A stretch of 45,620 bases of DNA from NCBI GenBank assembly GCA_964650085.1, contig CAZYSE010000003.1, positions 1,743-47,362 of the forward strand, read 5' to 3'. Position numbers and translations under genes: made by a program. Source of the DNA: an uncultured Candidatus Saccharibacteria bacterium (GTDB lineage Bacteria > Patescibacteriota > Dojkabacteria > J137). Of the stretch, positions 1,351 to 39,525 are shown in pieces. Numbering within the stretch: the stretch's first letter is position 1; each line of letters starts with the position of its first letter. The notes below the pieces were generated by a model that saw only the letters and a program-made list of their open reading frames with translations, was not told the DNA's origin and did no database searches.

Positions 1351-1679
1351 ATCCGAAGTACTCTTATCCTAAACAAACATCATTTGAAGACGAAAGTAAG
1401 CCAGTTAAGCTTCTTGAACTGTTCAACAAAGTTTTTGACGCTCTTGAGGGTAAACCTGTACAATTTACTAATTCAATTGGATACATCACACATGTCCGAT
1501 CTGGACACAGTGAACTAAACCCTGATGTTAAGATGTTGAGCTATTTTCGCGGAGGAATCTTTTCCATAATTCTTTATAATCCAAAGGAGGAGATGATTGC
1601 GGGTAGGTGGCATTACAATCTCGAGATGCCAGCAATTCAAATACAATCTACTCTCGAGAATATTGCTGAACACTTATGA
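1347..1679 (+). CDS. hypothetical protein
   Basis: 110-aa ORF with ATGA overlaps to both the upstream and downstream genes, suggesting translational coupling. No recognisable motif. Confidence 0.5.
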   Translation: MNPKYSYPKQTSFEDESKPVKLLELFNKVFDALEGKPVQFTNSIGYITHVRSGHSELNPDVKMLSYFRGGIFSIILYNPKEEMIAGRWHYNLEMPAIQIQSTLENIAEHL

Positions 1680-36790: not shown

Positions 36791-38260
36791 TTATTGAGTC
36801 AAACCATTCAAAACATATTCTCTAACCTCTGCTACAGGAATTCTAACTTGTTGCATAGAATCTCTTTCCCTTATAGTTACAGCGTTATCTGTTGCAGTAT
36901 CAAAGTCTACTGTAATGCAGAATGGTGTACCCACTTCGTCTTGTCTTCTATATCTTTTACCAATTGATGCAGTTTCATCGTACTGTGTCATCACATCAGA
37001 CTTTAATAAGTTTTGAATTTCTCTAGCTTTTGCTTGGAGTTCAGGTTTTTTAGATAGTGGCAGAATTGCTACTTTTACAGGAGCTAATGACTTTTTAAGT
37101 TTTAGTACTATTCGAGTATCTTCAGGGACATCACCCTCAGCAGCTTTGATAACTTCTTGCGTCCAGGCTTCTTCCAATACCATCATAAAACATCTATTCA
37201 AACCCACGGAGGTTTCAACAATATGTGGGGTAAATCTTACATTCTTTTCTTGATCAAAATAATCTAGCTTCTCACCTGAGAAGTTAGTGTGTTGAGTTAA
37301 ATCGTAATCACTTCTTGCATGAATACCTTCTAATTCTTTAAATCCTCCTAAAGTTCCAAAGTTATATTCAATATCATAAGCGGCAGAAGCGTAGAAAACC
37401 AATTTTTCGTGTTTTTTGAATCTCAAGTTATCTGGATTAATTCCCAATACTCTTACATGCCAGTCCATTCGAGCTTGTTTCCATTCTTCAAATATTGCTT
37501 CTGTTTGTTCAGGACTATGGAAGTATTGCATTTCCATTTGTTCAAATTCTCTAGTTCTAAAGATGAATTGCCTTGCTACAATTTCGTTTCGAAAAGCTTT
37601 TCCAACCTGAGCAATACCAAAAGGAAGTTTTAATCGCATTGTCTCTTGTACATTTTTGTACTGTAAATAGATTCCTTGGCAAGTCTCAGCTCGAGCATAA
37701 ACCACGTTATCATCATTGAACTGTGCATCAGTTGAACCTAAATTTGTTTTCAGCATTAAGTTAAAGTTTCGTGGTTCAGTTACATCGTTACCATCGGGAC
37801 TTTTAATTCCATTATCTTTAATAATCTGTGATATTTCTTCAGGTGTCTTTTTATCCATATCCACCTTCTCGCCCTTTTGCTCAAACCATTCCTCAACAAG
37901 GTGGTCAGCTCGATAACGTTTATGCGTCTTTTTATCTTCTACTAAAACATCAGAGAATCCTGCAGCATGACCAGAAGCTACCCAAGTCTTAGGATGCATA
38001 AATATTGCAGAATCGAGTTGAACAACATCAGATCTTTCTTGAACTACAGCTTTTTCCCATTCTCTTTGAATATTATTCTTAAGTAGAACTCCCATTGGAC
38101 CATAATCAAATACAGCTGATAATCCTCCGTAGATTTCGCTAGAAGGGTATACGAATGCATTCTCTTTAGCCCAGGAGCGGAATTGATCCAGAGTCGTCAT
38201 TTTGATTGCAGCTGTTAGCGGTTGGCTGTTAGCTGTTGGCTTGCTTTCTGTATTTTCCAT
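36791..38260 (-). CDS. glyQS: glycyl-tRNA synthetase (alpha2 dimeric type)
   Basis: The N-terminal FVYPSSEIYGGLSAVFDYGPMGVLLKNNI, class II motifs (FRNEI..R.FIFRTREFEQMEMQYF) and an anticodon-binding C-terminus are present. The conserved region starts near the second Met (38200). The first 20 codons are low-complexity repeat sequence, so the true start may be 38200. Confidence 0.9.
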   Translation of the reverse strand: MENTESKPTANSQPLTAAIKMTTLDQFRSWAKENAFVYPSSEIYGGLSAVFDYGPMGVLLKNNIQREWEKAVVQERSDVVQLDSAIFMHPKTWVASGHAAGFSDVLVEDKKTHKRYRADHLVEEWFEQKGEKVDMDKKTPEEISQIIKDNGIKSPDGNDVTEPRNFNLMLKTNLGSTDAQFNDDNVVYARAETCQGIYLQYKNVQETMRLKLPFGIAQVGKAFRNEIVARQFIFRTREFEQMEMQYFHSPEQTEAIFEEWKQARMDWHVRVLGINPDNLRFKKHEKLVFYASAAYDIEYNFGTLGGFKELEGIHARSDYDLTQHTNFSGEKLDYFDQEKNVRFTPHIVETSVGLNRCFMMVLEEAWTQEVIKAAEGDVPEDTRIVLKLKKSLAPVKVAILPLSKKPELQAKAREIQNLLKSDVMTQYDETASIGKRYRRQDEVGTPFCITVDFDTATDNAVTIRERDSMQQVRIPVAEVREYVLNGLTQ

Positions 38261-38301
38261 ATTGTAATTAGATGTAAGATATATGATTTAAGTTCTAAGA
38301 T

Positions 38302-38655
38302 TTATGCATTTAATTTCTTTAATAGATTTATTAGTTTTCTTTTAATAACATTTATTGCAGAATTGAATTTACTATATTCAAACTCTGTTAAATAATTTAG
38401 TTCAAAGCTTGCTAGTAATAAATACTCAACCTCTGTAGCAGAACCTAAGCTTATCGATATGTATCTTGCAAAAAGTTTCTGGCTTGATGCTGTTGATCCT
38501 TCTGCTATATTTGTAGGGATTGATAACCCTGCTCTTAGCAATTGATCTACTAGTCTGTACTTCTCAGCTTTATCAAACTTATCACACAGCTTATACAATT
38601 CCTTAATTAGATGGTGCGATTCTTTCCAAACTTCAAGCTTTTTAAAATCGATCAT
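38302..38655 (-). CDS. four-helix-bundle protein (23S rRNA intervening-sequence protein / Avd-like family)
   Basis: Family pattern: LEVWKESHHLIKELYKLCDKFDKAEKYRLVDQLLRAGLSIPTNIAEGS...ISISLGSATEVEYLL. Paralog of 24219..24578. Confidence 0.8.
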   Translation of the reverse strand: MIDFKKLEVWKESHHLIKELYKLCDKFDKAEKYRLVDQLLRAGLSIPTNIAEGSTASSQKLFARYISISLGSATEVEYLLLASFELNYLTEFEYSKFNSAINVIKRKLINLLKKLNA

Positions 38656-38693
38656 AAATCTTATATCCTAAATCCTAAGACCTAGAATATAAC

Positions 38694-38743
38694 AAAAAAC
38701 CGCCCCAAGACCTATGTACCGTAATACATAAATCCTGGGACGG
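38694..38743 (-). terminator. intrinsic terminator of the T-box leader
   Basis: On the minus strand, ccgtcccagga...(inner hairpin atgta-ttacgg-tacat)...tcttggggcgg forms an 11-bp stem with two G-U pairs. A T6 run follows. Confidence 0.7.
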
Positions 38744-38910
38744 TTGTTAAAACATATTCATGCAAACTCTATATGAGCCTGCGGTGAGTCCCTAAGGGAT
38801 CACTTTGTGACTTGTCGAACCGCGGTTCCACCCAATTTCCTTATTATTTCTAATAAAGCACTTTTGTGTTTATTTCAGCTCCAGCATGCCATTGCCTTCA
38901 ACGCTATCTT
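38744..38910 (-). promoter_or_regulatory. T-box riboswitch leader (tRNA-Gly type), body upstream of its terminator
   Basis: The minus strand contains AAATTGGGTGGAACCGCGG (38820..38838), matching the T-box consensus AANNNGGGUGGNACCGCG. An antiterminator can form: UUGGG [UGGAACC bulge] GCGGUU ... AACCGU CCCAG, and its 3' strand overlaps the terminator 5' strand. UGGA matches the U73-CCA end of bacterial tRNA-Gly. Two GGC-A (Gly codon plus purine) occurrences lie in the 5' hairpin region (gaaGGCAatGGCAtgc). Confidence 0.75.
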
Positions 38911-38916
38911 CCAATT

Positions 38917-38925
38917 ATTATATCA
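38917..38925 (-). promoter_or_regulatory. extended -10 promoter (TGaTATAAT) for the T-box leader
   Basis: The minus strand reads ggtcaTGATATAATaattgg, placing the transcription start near 38910. Confidence 0.45.
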
Positions 38926-38985
38926 TGACCAAAAATATTCTAAAACTGTCTTTCGCACATAGCCCAAAGCTCTGAGCTCTCAGCT

Positions 38986-39525
38986 TTATTCAATTACAAC
39001 TTCAATTTCTACAACTTTTTGTTCTGATCCATCCATTGCACTTTCAGAATAAAATCTTAATACTGCTTTATCTCCACTTGATAAGCTAGTCAAATCGATT
39101 TCTTTTGTAAATATTCCAGGGTTGCCAATGTCAGATGGTAAGTAGTTTAGAAATCCAGAATCTACAGTTGTTCCTCCTGATGATATTCTGAAATTTACTG
39201 TGTTTTCAAAGAATCCTTGTGCTATACCATAAACTGTAAATACACTATCAACCACAGATCTGTCGCAAGGAAAGAATACAATTAAACCTCCATCTTCCGC
39301 AACATTGTTACAACTAACTCGAGAGAATTCGCTAAAGTCAGGCAAAACTATTGGTTCGCCTTCTTCAGAAATGCTACCTAACATTGCTTCTAAATTTGTA
39401 AGCTTTTGTTCTACTTGAGCAAGTCTTCCATTACTGTTGTGTAGGTTTACTCCAAGGATAGTAGATACGATGGTTAGAGCAATTATTAAGACAAAAACTA
39501 GAGCGGTGAGTATAAATCTTTTCAT
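38986..39525 (-). CDS. membrane-anchored protein with a Gmad2-type Ig-like domain
   Basis: An N-terminal TM helix (ILTALVFVLIIALTIVSTILGV) and a short coiled coil precede VFTVYGIAQGFFENTVNFRISSGGTTVDSG...AVLRFYSESAMDGSEQKVVEIEVVI. This resembles the Gmad2/GerM-associated Ig-like pattern. Confidence 0.5.
   Translation of the reverse strand: MKRFILTALVFVLIIALTIVSTILGVNLHNSNGRLAQVEQKLTNLEAMLGSISEEGEPIVLPDFSEFSRVSCNNVAEDGGLIVFFPCDRSVVDSVFTVYGIAQGFFENTVNFRISSGGTTVDSGFLNYLPSDIGNPGIFTKEIDLTSLSSGDKAVLRFYSESAMDGSEQKVVEIEVVIE

What the first reader, a model, noticed from the sequence alone, without database searches (positions are those of the whole stretch)
38694..38925. T-box riboswitch (tRNA-Gly type) with a truncated Stem I region and a very large antiterminator loop
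On the minus strand the sequence AAATTGGGTGGAACCGCGG fits the T-box consensus. The canonical antiterminator can be drawn: helix A1 UUGGG/CCCAG, the 7-nt bulge UGGAACC, and helix A2 GCGGUU/AACCGU. Its 3' strand is the 5' strand of a strong terminator (11-bp stem plus U6).

The bulge reads UGGA, which pairs with U73-CCA, and U73 is the bacterial tRNA-Gly discriminator. The downstream gene is glyQS, and GGC-A occurs twice in the 5' hairpin region.

Two features are unusual. First, only about 85 nt separate the predicted TSS (extended -10 TGATATAAT) from the T-box sequence. That is too short for a full Stem I with distal platform, and recalls the ultrashort Stem I of actinobacterial ileS T-boxes. 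Second, about 70 nt carrying two small hairpins are inserted in the A2 loop, which is normally only a few nt.
Basis: partly seen in the sequence, partly recalled or inferred. Interest (0 to 1): 0.6.

Follow-up and report, generated by a model that had tools for sequence, protein, structure and literature searches.

The report
Minimal glycine T-box with expanded antiterminator
The leader of the glycyl-tRNA synthetase gene in this tiny uncultured (CPR, probably Dojkabacteria) bacterium is a real tRNA-sensing T-box switch whose tRNA-reading arm has shrunk to one small hairpin; its oversized antiterminator loop is a recent insertion that a close strain lacks.

Summary
On the minus strand, 38925..38694 holds a promoter and a short Stem I: a K-turn plus a 4-bp helix capped by the hexaloop AUGGCA. 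Then come a 13-nt linker, AAGUG-Stem III-AA, the T-box core, an antiterminator (A1 UUGGG/CCCAG, bulge UGGAACC, A2 GCGGUU/AACCGU closed by G.U) and an overlapping 20-bp terminator with U6.

Rfam RF00230 gives only 28 bits against a threshold of 93. A covariance model built here finds the same architecture before glyS in 22 of 27 genomes of the family, and also in other classes of the phylum. All five helices covary. In eight of ten non-Gly leaders the triplet at loop positions 3-5 matches the downstream synthetase. The genome's tRNA-Gly(GCC) has U73, which matches UGGA.

There is no distal Stem I platform and no Stem II. This combines the "ultrashort" Stem I known from translational actinobacterial ileS T-boxes with a transcriptional, Stem II-less glycine T-box.

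The 72-nt A2-loop insert occurs only here and, as 49 nt, in one sister genome. A near-identical strain in metagenomes lacks it. 23 nt of it are a copy of a twin-hairpin repeat dispersed in this genome only. The closest precedent is staphylococcal stem Sa.

The parts
38917..38944 (-). Sigma-70-type promoter: -35 TTTAGA (38944..38939), 16-nt spacer, TG-extended -10 TGATATAAT (38925..38917). The inferred TSS is near 38911.
   Evidence: One search gives 10 of 12 matches with TG before the -10. In 35 of 52 related glyS leaders a -10-like box ends within 25 nt upstream of Stem I.
38877..38905 (-). Minimal Stem I. It reads: base helix AGC/GCU, a K-turn-like GA motif (GUU bulge, G.A and A.G pairs), the 4-bp helix GGCA/UGCU, and the hexaloop AUGGCA.
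   Evidence: RF00230 aligns the K-turn and base and deletes 75 distal positions. Both helices covary in 31 and in 27 relatives.
38888..38890 (-). Specifier codon GGC. It occupies positions 3-5 of the hexaloop A-U-GGC-A (38892..38887).
   Evidence: xUGG(C/A)x loops precede glyS across the family, class and phylum. The same loop register gives the cognate codon in 8 of 10 non-Gly leaders. It is complementary to the GCC anticodon of the own tRNA-Gly.
38864..38876 (-). 13-nt single-stranded linker GAAAUAAACACAA. It leaves no room for Stem II or a Stem IIA/B pseudoknot.
   Evidence: Sequence. RF00230 deletes 40 positions here.
38836..38863 (-). Stem III (38858..38839, 7 bp) with its flanking purines: AAGUG on the 5' side (38863..38859) and AA on the 3' side.
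   Evidence: Stem III covaries at all 6 modelled pairs. The RRRxG-Stem III-AA motif is described in PMC7583486.
38818..38835 (-). 5' half of the antiterminator: A1 UUGGG (38835..38831), T-box bulge UGGAACC (38830..38824) and A2 GCGGUU (38823..38818).
   Evidence: The bulge is UGGA in 50 of 51 glyS leaders. It pairs with the U73-CCA end of tRNA-Gly.
38746..38817 (-). 72-nt lineage-specific insert in the apical loop of A2. In the antiterminator state it folds into two hairpins.
   Evidence: A2 loop lengths from the model alignment: usually 0-16 nt, against 72 here, 49 in sister genome G001 and 8 in G002. A near-identical strain in metagenome runs X13 and X4 lacks it.
38788..38810 (-). Copy of a dispersed twin-mini-hairpin repeat, UCAC-AAA-GUGA / UCCC-UUA-GGGA. 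This is the part of the insert that G001 lacks.
   Evidence: The own genome has 8 copies and the 26 other genomes of the family have none. All copies are intergenic. No Rfam family matches them.
38735..38745 (-). 3' half of the antiterminator: A2 AACCGU (38745..38740) and A1 CCCAG (38739..38735). The pair G38823.U38740 is the wobble at the base of A2.
   Evidence: A1 and A2 covary. The base pair of A2 is G.U in 26 of 31 and in 24 of 27 relatives.
38694..38745 (-). Intrinsic terminator: a hairpin of about 20 bp (38745..38698) plus a U6 tract. Its 5' strand is made of the A2 and A1 3' strands.
   Evidence: The full-leader MFE is the terminator state, -79.7 kcal/mol, against -56.2 for the enforced antiterminator. 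The same arrangement is found in 44 of 52 glyS leaders.
38302..38655 (-). 117-aa four-helix-bundle (23S rRNA IVP / Avd-like) ORF, inserted between the terminator and glyS.
   Evidence: PF05635 at 114 bits and TIGR02436 at 108 bits. It is absent at this place in G001 and G002, where glyS follows the terminator directly.
36791..38260 (-). glyS/glyQS (dimeric-type glycine--tRNA ligase), the regulated gene. The likely true start is ATG 38200.
   Evidence: NF003211 at 594 bits. The N-terminus aligns with relatives from MTTLDQFRSWAKEN onward.

Best explanation
This is a functional transcription-attenuating T-box riboswitch specific for tRNA-Gly(GCC). It controls the operon made of the four-helix-bundle ORF and glyS.

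Transcription starts about 5 nt before a minimal Stem I. A K-turn sits at its base, and a 4-bp helix presents the specifier GGC in a hexaloop, A-U-GGC-A. That loop looks like an anticodon loop: a U before the triplet and a purine after it.

The tRNA anticodon pairs with this loop. It could pair as 5 bp, UGGCA with U33-A37 of the tRNA (inferred).

After a 13-nt linker comes a fully canonical discriminator: AAGUG-Stem III-AA, A1, the bulge UGGAACC, and A2 closed by a G.U wobble. If the tRNA is uncharged, its U73-CCA end pairs with UGGA and stabilises the antiterminator. RNA polymerase then reads through into the ORF and glyS. If the tRNA is charged, or absent, the more stable 20-bp terminator forms and transcription stops at the U6 tract near 38694.

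The leader has neither the distal Stem I platform that binds the tRNA elbow nor a Stem II. This reduced design is shared by glyS leaders through the family and occurs in other classes of the phylum.

The 72-nt insert sits at the tip of helix A2, where extra RNA is tolerated. It is a recent accessory expansion. One layer is shared with a sister species. A second layer is a copy of a genome-specific twin-hairpin repeat.

Shown here: anatomy, conservation, covariation, the codon and discriminator matches, and the strain polymorphism. Inferred: tRNA binding, the switch itself, and neutrality of the insert.
For: Rfam and own genome
- RF00230 aligns the K-turn base, Stem III and the T-box core at E = 3.5e-4.
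- This is the only T-box-like hit in the 1.16-Mb genome.

Covariance model R1
- It finds one such leader in 69 of 221 genomes of the class and in 22 of 27 of the family.
- It finds one in 34 of 401 sampled genomes of the phylum.

Covariation
- 90.4% and 95.6% of cells are paired, against 37-55% when partners are slid.
- 21 and 23 of 24 pairs show compensatory changes, across all five helices.

Specifier and discriminator matches
- 52 leaders lie before GlyRS, and the bulge is UGGA in 50 of 51.
- Loops are xUGGCx or UUGGAA.
- The loop triplet matches the downstream synthetase in 8 of 10 non-Gly leaders: GAC-AspRS three times, AUC-IleRS twice, UGC-CysRS, CGC-ArgRS and ACC-ThrRS. The fourth bulge base changes with them: UGGC, UGGU, UGGA.
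- The own tRNA-Gly(GCC) has U73 and the anticodon loop UUGCCAA.

Switch anatomy
- A terminator overlapping the antiterminator is found in 44 of 52 leaders and here.
- The discriminator-only MFE equals the proposed antiterminator, -34.0 kcal/mol. The full-length MFE is the terminator.
- The promoter lies directly before Stem I.

The insert
- It is absent in G002 and in nearly all relatives.
- A strain with an identical promoter, Stem I and terminator 5' strand lacks it.
- 23 nt of it belong to a repeat found only in this genome.
- Precedent for an A2 insertion in a working glyS T-box: stem Sa (PMC9177973).
Against: - No experiment or RNA-seq was available. All sequencing runs that hold the locus are DNA.
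- RF00230 is far below its gathering score.
- Published work holds that a truncated Stem I barely binds tRNA without Stem II (PMC7583486). Binding by this leader alone is therefore unproven, and a protein or other helper cannot be excluded.
- An alternative local helix, GCGGU/ACCGC, inside the insert competes with A2. It is only 4-5 kcal/mol less favourable.
- The alignments used for pair counts were fitted to the model, which favours the structure.
- The insert's stems are well conserved between G000 and G001, while Stem III differs between them. This could mean the insert has a role.
Confidence: 0.78

Rival explanations
1. The A2-loop insert is a functional module rather than tolerated extra RNA. 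Like staphylococcal stem Sa, it would tune tRNA binding or isoacceptor choice. Alternatively it would bind a protein or a second ligand, or act as a folding decoy through the GCGGU/ACCGC helix that delays antiterminator formation.
For: - The part shared by G000 and G001 (UUCGACAAG..CUCACCGCAGGCUC.UA.AGAGUUUGCAUGA) is nearly identical, while their Stem III sequences are unrelated. Differences in the GGCUC/GAGUU hairpin fall in its loop.
- The insert raises the predicted stability of the antiterminator domain from -20 kcal/mol in G002 to -34/-35 kcal/mol.
- Stem Sa is needed for full read-through and for discrimination between tRNA-Gly isoacceptors (PMC9177973).
Against: - It is absent from the sister genome G002, from about 50 other glyS leaders, and from a strain with an identical promoter, Stem I and terminator strand.
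- One third of it is a copy of a dispersed intergenic repeat.
- Only two genomes carry it, so covariation cannot be tested.
Confidence: 0.2
2. The leader is a decaying or disabled T-box. The insert, the competing helix and the inserted ORF would have uncoupled sensing from termination, so glyS is expressed constitutively or from another promoter.
For: - The enforced antiterminator is 23 kcal/mol less stable than the terminator state.
- A competing helix exists.
- A foreign ORF of about 350 nt now separates the leader from glyS.
- G000 has lost every other T-box, whereas relatives keep 1-8.
Against: - Every conserved element is intact: K-turn, UGGCA loop, AAGUG/AA purines, the 17-nt T-box, the G.U wobble, and full A1 and A2 complementarity.
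- The terminator being stronger than the antiterminator is normal for T-boxes.
- No minus-strand promoter was found between the terminator and glyS. The essential single-copy glyS therefore depends on read-through.
- Small ORFs sit at the same place in many relatives that have normal leaders.
Confidence: 0.08
3. The minimal leader does not work as RNA alone. tRNA capture would need a lineage-specific helper, for example a K-turn-binding L7Ae/YbxF-type protein or another factor, that replaces the missing elbow platform and Stem II.
For: - Reviews report barely detectable tRNA binding by truncated Stem I without Stem II, and mention K-turn-binding proteins as possible helpers (PMC7583486).
- The K-turn is retained in most, though not all, minimal leaders.
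Against: - Some family members (G023, G013) have a plain 7-bp hairpin without a K-turn and are otherwise identical.
- No candidate protein was looked for or found here.
- The GGC:GCC pairing is the strongest possible codon-anticodon pair, and Gly T-boxes already dispense with Stem II (PMC7583486, PMC11404447).
Confidence: 0.2

Closest known systems
Class I transcriptional glycine T-boxes of Bacilli (B. subtilis / G. kaustophilus / O. iheyensis glyQS; Rfam RF00230)
   Same: - Regulates the glycyl-tRNA synthetase gene.
- GGC specifier and UGGA bulge for U73.
- K-turn at the base of Stem I and no Stem II.
- RRRxG-Stem III-AA motif.
- A1, 7-nt bulge and A2 with a G.U wobble.
- Mutually exclusive intrinsic terminator.
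   Different: - Stem I ends at the specifier. The codon sits in a terminal hexaloop, not in an internal Specifier Loop with an S-turn.
- The distal AG bulge and apical loop, which form the elbow-binding double T-loop platform, are absent.
- There is a 72-nt insert in the A2 loop.
- It scores 28 bits against the 93-bit Rfam threshold.
Ultrashort (US) Stem I translational ileS T-boxes of Actinobacteria (M. smegmatis / M. tuberculosis ileS; bioRxiv 10.1101/2023.02.28.530422, PMC7583486)
   Same: A short Stem I replaces the long one. The Specifier Sequence lies in the terminal loop and there is no elbow platform.
   Different: - US T-boxes are described as regulating only ileS.
- They act on translation through a sequestrator.
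- They need a Stem II S-turn and a IIA/B pseudoknot to bind tRNA.
- This leader regulates glyS, uses a terminator, and has only a 13-nt linker instead of Stem II.
Stem Sa of staphylococcal glyS T-boxes (PMC9177973)
   Same: A lineage-specific insertion of tens of nucleotides (42 nt) in the antiterminator/terminator domain, on helix A2, of a glyS T-box. That T-box also escaped standard detection tools.
   Different: - No sequence relation was seen.
- Stem Sa is conserved in all staphylococci and contributes to function.
- The insert here is restricted to two genomes, is polymorphic between close strains, and is partly made of a dispersed repeat.

Membership tests
T-box riboswitch (tRNA-sensing leader, RF00230 sense) | Specifier triplet in Stem I that matches a codon of the amino acid of the regulated gene | tested here: met
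   GGC lies in the hexaloop at 38890..38888 before glyS. The same loop register gives the cognate codon in 8 of 10 non-Gly leaders.
T-box riboswitch (tRNA-sensing leader, RF00230 sense) | Conserved T-box sequence forming a 7-nt bulge UGGN-ACC, with N complementary to the tRNA discriminator base | tested here: met
   The bulge is UGGAACC. The own tRNA-Gly(GCC) has U73. The core occurs once, against 0.01 expected. UGGA is found in 50 of 51 glyS leaders.
T-box riboswitch (tRNA-sensing leader, RF00230 sense) | Antiterminator (A1/A2) mutually exclusive with an intrinsic terminator | tested here: met
   The A2 and A1 3' strands form the 5' strand of a 20-bp hairpin followed by U6. The same is found in 44 of 52 relatives. 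A1 and A2 covary.
T-box riboswitch (tRNA-sensing leader, RF00230 sense) | Discriminator details: RRRxG-Stem III-AA purines and a G.U wobble at the base of A2 | tested here: met
   AAGUG precedes Stem III and AA follows it. G.U is present in 26 of 31 and in 24 of 27 relatives. The motif is as described in PMC7583486.
T-box riboswitch (tRNA-sensing leader, RF00230 sense) | Long Stem I with a distal AG bulge and apical loop (the tRNA-elbow platform) | tested here: not met
   The RF00230 alignment deletes 75 Stem I positions. The promoter ends 12 nt before the Stem I base. The hairpin is 29 nt long.
T-box riboswitch (tRNA-sensing leader, RF00230 sense) | Rfam RF00230 gathering score (93 bits) | tested here: not met
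   It scores 28.1 bits. Insert-free relatives reach 50-56 bits.
T-box riboswitch (tRNA-sensing leader, RF00230 sense) | tRNA-dependent, charge-sensitive read-through | not testable with these tools
   This needs in vitro transcription or reporter assays. Only DNA runs hold the locus.
Ultrashort-Stem I (class II, translational ileS) T-box | Short Stem I with the specifier in its terminal loop | tested here: met
   The hexaloop AUGGCA sits on a 4-bp helix above a K-turn.
Ultrashort-Stem I (class II, translational ileS) T-box | Stem II with an S-turn, plus a Stem IIA/B pseudoknot | tested here: not met
   Only 13 nt lie between Stem I and the AAGUG purines.
Ultrashort-Stem I (class II, translational ileS) T-box | Sequestrator/anti-sequestrator control of the ribosome-binding site; regulates ileS | tested here: not met
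   A terminator hairpin plus U6 lies 39 nt before the next start codon. The regulated synthetase is GlyRS.
Stem Sa-type antiterminator insertion (staphylococcal glyS) | Insertion located in the A2 / apical part of the antiterminator of a glyS T-box | tested here: met
   72 nt lie between the A2 strands.
Stem Sa-type antiterminator insertion (staphylococcal glyS) | Conserved throughout its lineage and required for full function | tested here: not met
   It is present only in G000 and G001. It is absent in G002 and in a near-identical strain. Function was not testable.

The most novel reading that the evidence does not exclude
CPR/Patescibacteria carry a widespread class of transcription-terminating T-boxes that I found described in none of the papers searched. 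These leaders would recognise their tRNA with only two RNA contacts: an anticodon-loop-like hexaloop (N-U-codon-R) on a K-turn, and the discriminator. They have neither the Stem I elbow platform nor Stem II. Current structural work treats that combination as insufficient for tRNA binding. They would be the smallest natural tRNA-sensing switches, about 100 nt without the terminator. They serve Gly and also Asp, Cys, Arg and Thr synthetase genes. The locus studied here adds that the tip of A2 accepts a polymorphic 72-nt insert.
Probability: 0.45. Interest if true: 0.8.

Novelty: new variant of a known kind. Interest (0 to 1): 0.6.

Why it matters
T-box structural work rests on two rules. Transcriptional T-boxes grip the tRNA elbow with a long Stem I. 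T-boxes with a truncated Stem I need Stem II and act on translation.

This leader and its many relatives keep a terminator and lack both. If they work as RNA alone, they define the minimal requirements for co-transcriptional tRNA recognition. They would also give a compact scaffold for engineered tRNA sensors.

Standard annotation (Rfam RF00230) misses them, so the regulatory repertoire of CPR bacteria is under-counted.

The insert polymorphism is a natural experiment on how much extra RNA the antiterminator tip tolerates.

Tried and rejected
- The RF00230 alignment closes A1 with the CCC at about 38797..38795 (GAUCCCUUAG) and ends at 38792. I rejected this. That CCC lies in the genome-specific repeat, is absent in G001 and G002, and does not overlap the terminator.
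- An alternative A2' helix, GCGGU/ACCGC, was considered. It would also place about 45 unpaired nt opposite the T-box bulge. I kept it only as a possible folding competitor.
- The search for related loci with a GlyRS alignment in genome contigs gave 80 loci, mostly Bacteroidota. The best named hit was Candidatus Dojkabacteria at 59% identity. None had a T-box core upstream.
- A metagenome-contig scan with the 21-nt Stem I sequence gave six chance hits in unrelated coding regions.
- The look-up of encoding contigs with the upstream 179-aa protein found nothing on record.
- Only DNA sequencing runs hold the locus, so there is no transcript evidence.
- Rfam found no family for the twin-hairpin repeat.
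- My first heuristic counts of loops and terminators were too strict. They were replaced by alignment-based loops and a better terminator scan.
- Literature searches for T-box together with CPR, Patescibacteria and related names found no paper in the held library. This is not proof that none exists.
Full report
**Observation**

Read on the minus strand (coordinates), the region holds the following elements in order:
- an extended -10 promoter: -35 TTTAGA at 38944..38939 and TGATATAAT at 38925..38917, 10 of 12 matches;
- a 29-nt hairpin at 38905..38877;
- a 13-nt linker;
- AAGUG, then a 7-bp Stem III (38858..38839), then AA;
- the T-box sequence AAAUUGGGUGGAACCGCGG (38838..38820);
- 72 nt of extra sequence;
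- AACCGUCCCAG;
- a hairpin of about 20 bp followed by U6 (38745..38694).

The core GGGTGGNACCGCG occurs once in 45.6 kb, against 0.01 expected by chance. The TSS-to-T-box distance is about 75 nt.

The next gene is not glyS. It is a 117-aa four-helix-bundle (23S rRNA IVP / Avd-like) ORF. GlyRS follows it (NF003211, 594 bits) and probably starts at ATG 38200.

**Rfam**

RF00230 does not reach its gathering score. With a permissive threshold it gives 28.1 bits against 93, E = 3.5e-4. It aligns the K-turn base of Stem I, Stem III and the T-box core, and it deletes 75 Stem I positions and 40 Stem II positions. Its closure of A1 uses a CCC inside the insert, which I consider an artefact (see "The large A2 loop"). 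This is the only T-box-like hit in the 1.16-Mb, 103-contig genome.

**Relatives**

A BLAST of the leader against 100 related genomes found the T-box core before glyS in many of them. From eight of these I built a covariance model, R1, with five helices: Stem I base, the small upper helix, Stem III, A1 and A2.
- R1 finds, as a rule, one match per genome in 69 of 221 genomes of the class and in 22 of 27 of the family.
- It finds a match in 34 of 401 genomes sampled across the phylum.
- Of the 99 leaders collected, 52 lie before GlyRS on the same strand.

Pair counts on the class sample (31 leaders) and on a separate phylum sample (27 distinct leaders):
- 90.4% and 95.6% of cells are paired, against 37-55% when partners are slid by 1-3 columns.
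- 21 and 23 of 24 pairs show compensatory changes.
- All five helices covary.

The alignments were fitted to the model, which favours the structure, but the margin is large. The closing pair of A2 is G.U in 26 of 31 and in 24 of 27 leaders. This is the wobble pair that structural work identifies as the steric sensor of the aminoacyl group (PMC7583486). The RRRxG-Stem III-AA purine motif described in that review is also present.

**Which tRNA**

The genome's tRNA-Gly(GCC) has U73 and the anticodon loop UUGCCAA. It has no encoded CCA. UGGA therefore pairs with U73-CCA, and GGC pairs with GCC.

The specifier is the second GGCA, in the hairpin loop A-U-GGC-A. The first GGCA is the 5' strand of the 4-bp helix. 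Across glyS leaders the loop reads (A/U/G)UGGC(A/G), or UUGGAA for the GGA codon. The bulge is UGGA in 50 of 51.

As an independent test of the loop register, I identified the genes behind ten non-Gly leaders. Loop positions 3-5 gave the cognate codon in eight:
- GAC before AspRS, three times;
- AUC before IleRS, twice;
- UGC before CysRS;
- CGC before ArgRS;
- ACC before ThrRS.

The fourth bulge base changes accordingly: UGGC for Asp, UGGU for Ile and Arg, UGGA for Cys and Thr. In the two failures (ValRS and one IleRS) the model had visibly misaligned Stem I.

**Stem I is short by design**

The hairpin reads AGC | GUU | GA | A-GGCA [AUGGCA] UGCU-G | GA | GCU. That is a K-turn (3-nt bulge and tandem G.A pairs) directly followed by four pairs and the loop.

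The -10 box ends 12 nt before the base helix. In 35 of 52 related glyS leaders a -10-like hexamer ends within 25 nt upstream of the hairpin, often with a good TTGACA at the right spacing. The RNA therefore cannot contain a distal Stem I. The 13-nt linker leaves no room for Stem II or the IIA/B pseudoknot.

Canonical long T-boxes do exist in this class. RF00230 exceeds its threshold in 20 of 221 genomes. Some glyS leaders of another family in the class carry AGUGAAA-type motifs upstream, which suggests a longer Stem I. The minimal form is thus a derived reduction, not an ancestral oddity.

The invariant U before the codon and the usual purine after it give the loop the look of an anticodon loop (U33, the triplet, R37). 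UGGCA is complementary to tRNA positions 33-37. Whether the contact extends beyond 3 bp is inference only.

**Switch**

For the discriminator domain alone, the minimum-free-energy fold is exactly Stem III + A1 + bulge + A2:
- -34.0 kcal/mol here;
- -35.5 in G001;
- -20.0 in G002.

For the whole leader, the minimum-free-energy fold is the terminator state at -79.7 kcal/mol. The enforced antiterminator gives -56.2. This is the usual T-box relation.

A terminator hairpin that uses the A2 and A1 3' strands and ends in a U run is found in 44 of 52 glyS leaders. A few leaders outside the class look translational instead: UCCCU pairs with an AGGAG before the start codon.

**The large A2 loop**

In the model alignment the A2 loop has 0-16 nt in nearly all leaders. 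The exceptions are 72 nt here, 49 nt in sister genome G001, 41 nt in one truncated locus and 23 nt in one other. Sister genome G002 has 8 nt in that alignment, about 9 by eye.

G000 and G001 share UUCGACAAG...CUCACCGCAGGCUC(loop)GAGUUUGCAUGA. G000 has in addition the 23 nt UCACAAAGUGAUCCCUUAGGGAC (38810..38788).

That piece is one of eight copies of a twin-mini-hairpin repeat in this genome:
- it is absent from all 26 other genomes of the family, and a reversed-pattern control gives 0;
- all copies are intergenic;
- no Rfam family matches them;
- the copies differ by compensatory changes in both mini-stems: UCAC/GUGA against CCAC/GUGG, and UCCC/GGGA against CCCC/GGGG.

Metagenome contigs from runoff and bioreactor samples (X13, X4) include a strain with the following features:
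- its promoter and Stem I are identical to the window (38877..39000, no differences);
- its terminator 5' strand is the same;
- only 73 nt lie between Stem I and the A2 3' strand, against 132 nt in the window;
- that middle part aligns collinearly, at 82% identity, with G002's short-loop leader.

X4 holds both forms. The insert is therefore a recent, layered expansion at the tip of A2, present in some close strains and absent in others.

The best precedent is stem Sa, a 42-nt insertion in the antiterminator of staphylococcal glyS T-boxes. Those leaders also escaped standard detection (PMC9177973). Stem Sa, however, is conserved and functional in its lineage. A competing local helix, GCGGU/ACCGC, exists in G000 and G001 but is 4-5 kcal/mol less favourable.

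**Comparison with what is known**

The discriminator and the lack of Stem II match Bacillus-type glyQS T-boxes. The Stem I matches the "ultrashort" class. That class is described as translational, restricted to ileS, and dependent on Stem II (bioRxiv 10.1101/2023.02.28.530422; PMC7583486).

I did not find the combination seen here in the held literature: an ultrashort Stem I, no Stem II, a terminator, and glyS or other synthetase genes as targets. That is a limited library.

Earlier AI notes of this scan report the same reduced design in other CPR genomes. They agree with my results but are not independent evidence. Earlier notes also call this genome Dojkabacteria. The best named GlyRS relative I found is a Candidatus Dojkabacteria MAG at 59% identity.

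**Verdict**

This is a real glycine T-box, and a member of a reduced CPR variant of the family. It carries an accessory insert in the antiterminator loop that a close strain lacks. Function as a tRNA-dependent antiterminator is inferred, not shown.

Noticed in passing
window 38788-38810; own genome C1:40485-40506, C6:22560-22581, C12:12442-12463, C15:4746-4767, C42:8763-8784, C49:5356-5377, C63:1389-1410: A dispersed twin-mini-hairpin repeat, (C/U)CAC-AAA-GUG(G/A) followed by (U/C)CCC-UU(U/A)-GGG(A/G). It has 8 intergenic copies in this genome and none in the 26 other genomes of the family. Each copy is enclosed by a different outer helix, and the mini-stems show compensatory changes. Four copies share a longer unit, GATGTCATGGTGAGGcaCCG...AACCATACATC. 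No Rfam match. Its nature is unknown (REP- or MITE-like, or a structured RNA).
   Followed up: partly
window 38261-38700: A 117-aa four-helix-bundle (23S rRNA IVP / Avd-like) ORF sits between the T-box terminator and glyS. The sister genomes G001 and G002 have glyS directly after the terminator. In 19 of 44 related leaders more than 100 nt, often a small ORF of 69-250 aa, lies between the terminator and glyS. This spot looks like an insertion hotspot placed under T-box control.
   Followed up: partly
window 38200-38260: The annotatable 489-aa glyS frame starts at 38260, but relatives align only from ATG 38200 (MTTLDQFRSWAKEN). The 60-nt extension holds a GCTGTTAGC-type simple repeat (38210-38241). 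That repeat attracts many unrelated metagenome contigs at high depth.
   Followed up: partly
window 38745-38876 versus metagenome runs X13 and X4: Strain polymorphism. A contig with a promoter, Stem I and terminator strand identical to the window has 73 nt instead of 132 nt between them, with a different Stem III and a short A2 loop. Run X4 holds both forms. This suggests recombination that swaps the middle of the leader.
   Followed up: partly
L129 (G083:C21), 1359-1477 and 1501-1622, minus strand: Two minimal glycine T-boxes in tandem before one glyS gene.
   Followed up: no
L186 and L187 (other classes of the phylum): These minimal glyS leaders have no U-run terminator. The A1 3' strand UCCCU can pair with an AGGAG just before the start codon, so they are probably translational versions of the same minimal design.
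   Followed up: no
L142, L205, L141 (AspRS); L139 (CysRS); L140 (ArgRS); L207 (ThrRS); L148, L156 (IleRS): Short-Stem I leaders with the codon in a hexaloop (GUGACA, AUUGCA, AUCGCA, CUACCA, CUAUCA) precede other aminoacyl-tRNA synthetase genes in the class and phylum. The Ile leaders are longer (135-155 nt) and may keep a Stem II.
   Followed up: partly
own genome versus class: G000 has a single T-box-like leader, whereas relatives in the class have 1-8 RF00230 matches, and 20 of 221 genomes have one over the Rfam threshold. T-box content varies strongly between these small genomes.
   Followed up: no
L114 / L019 (G011:C11), about 270-600 nt after the leader: A 109-aa ORF starting MPNHVHILIQ lies between the T-box terminator and glyS. 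From memory this resembles the HxH motif of IS200/RAYT-type transposases. Not checked against any library.
   Followed up: no
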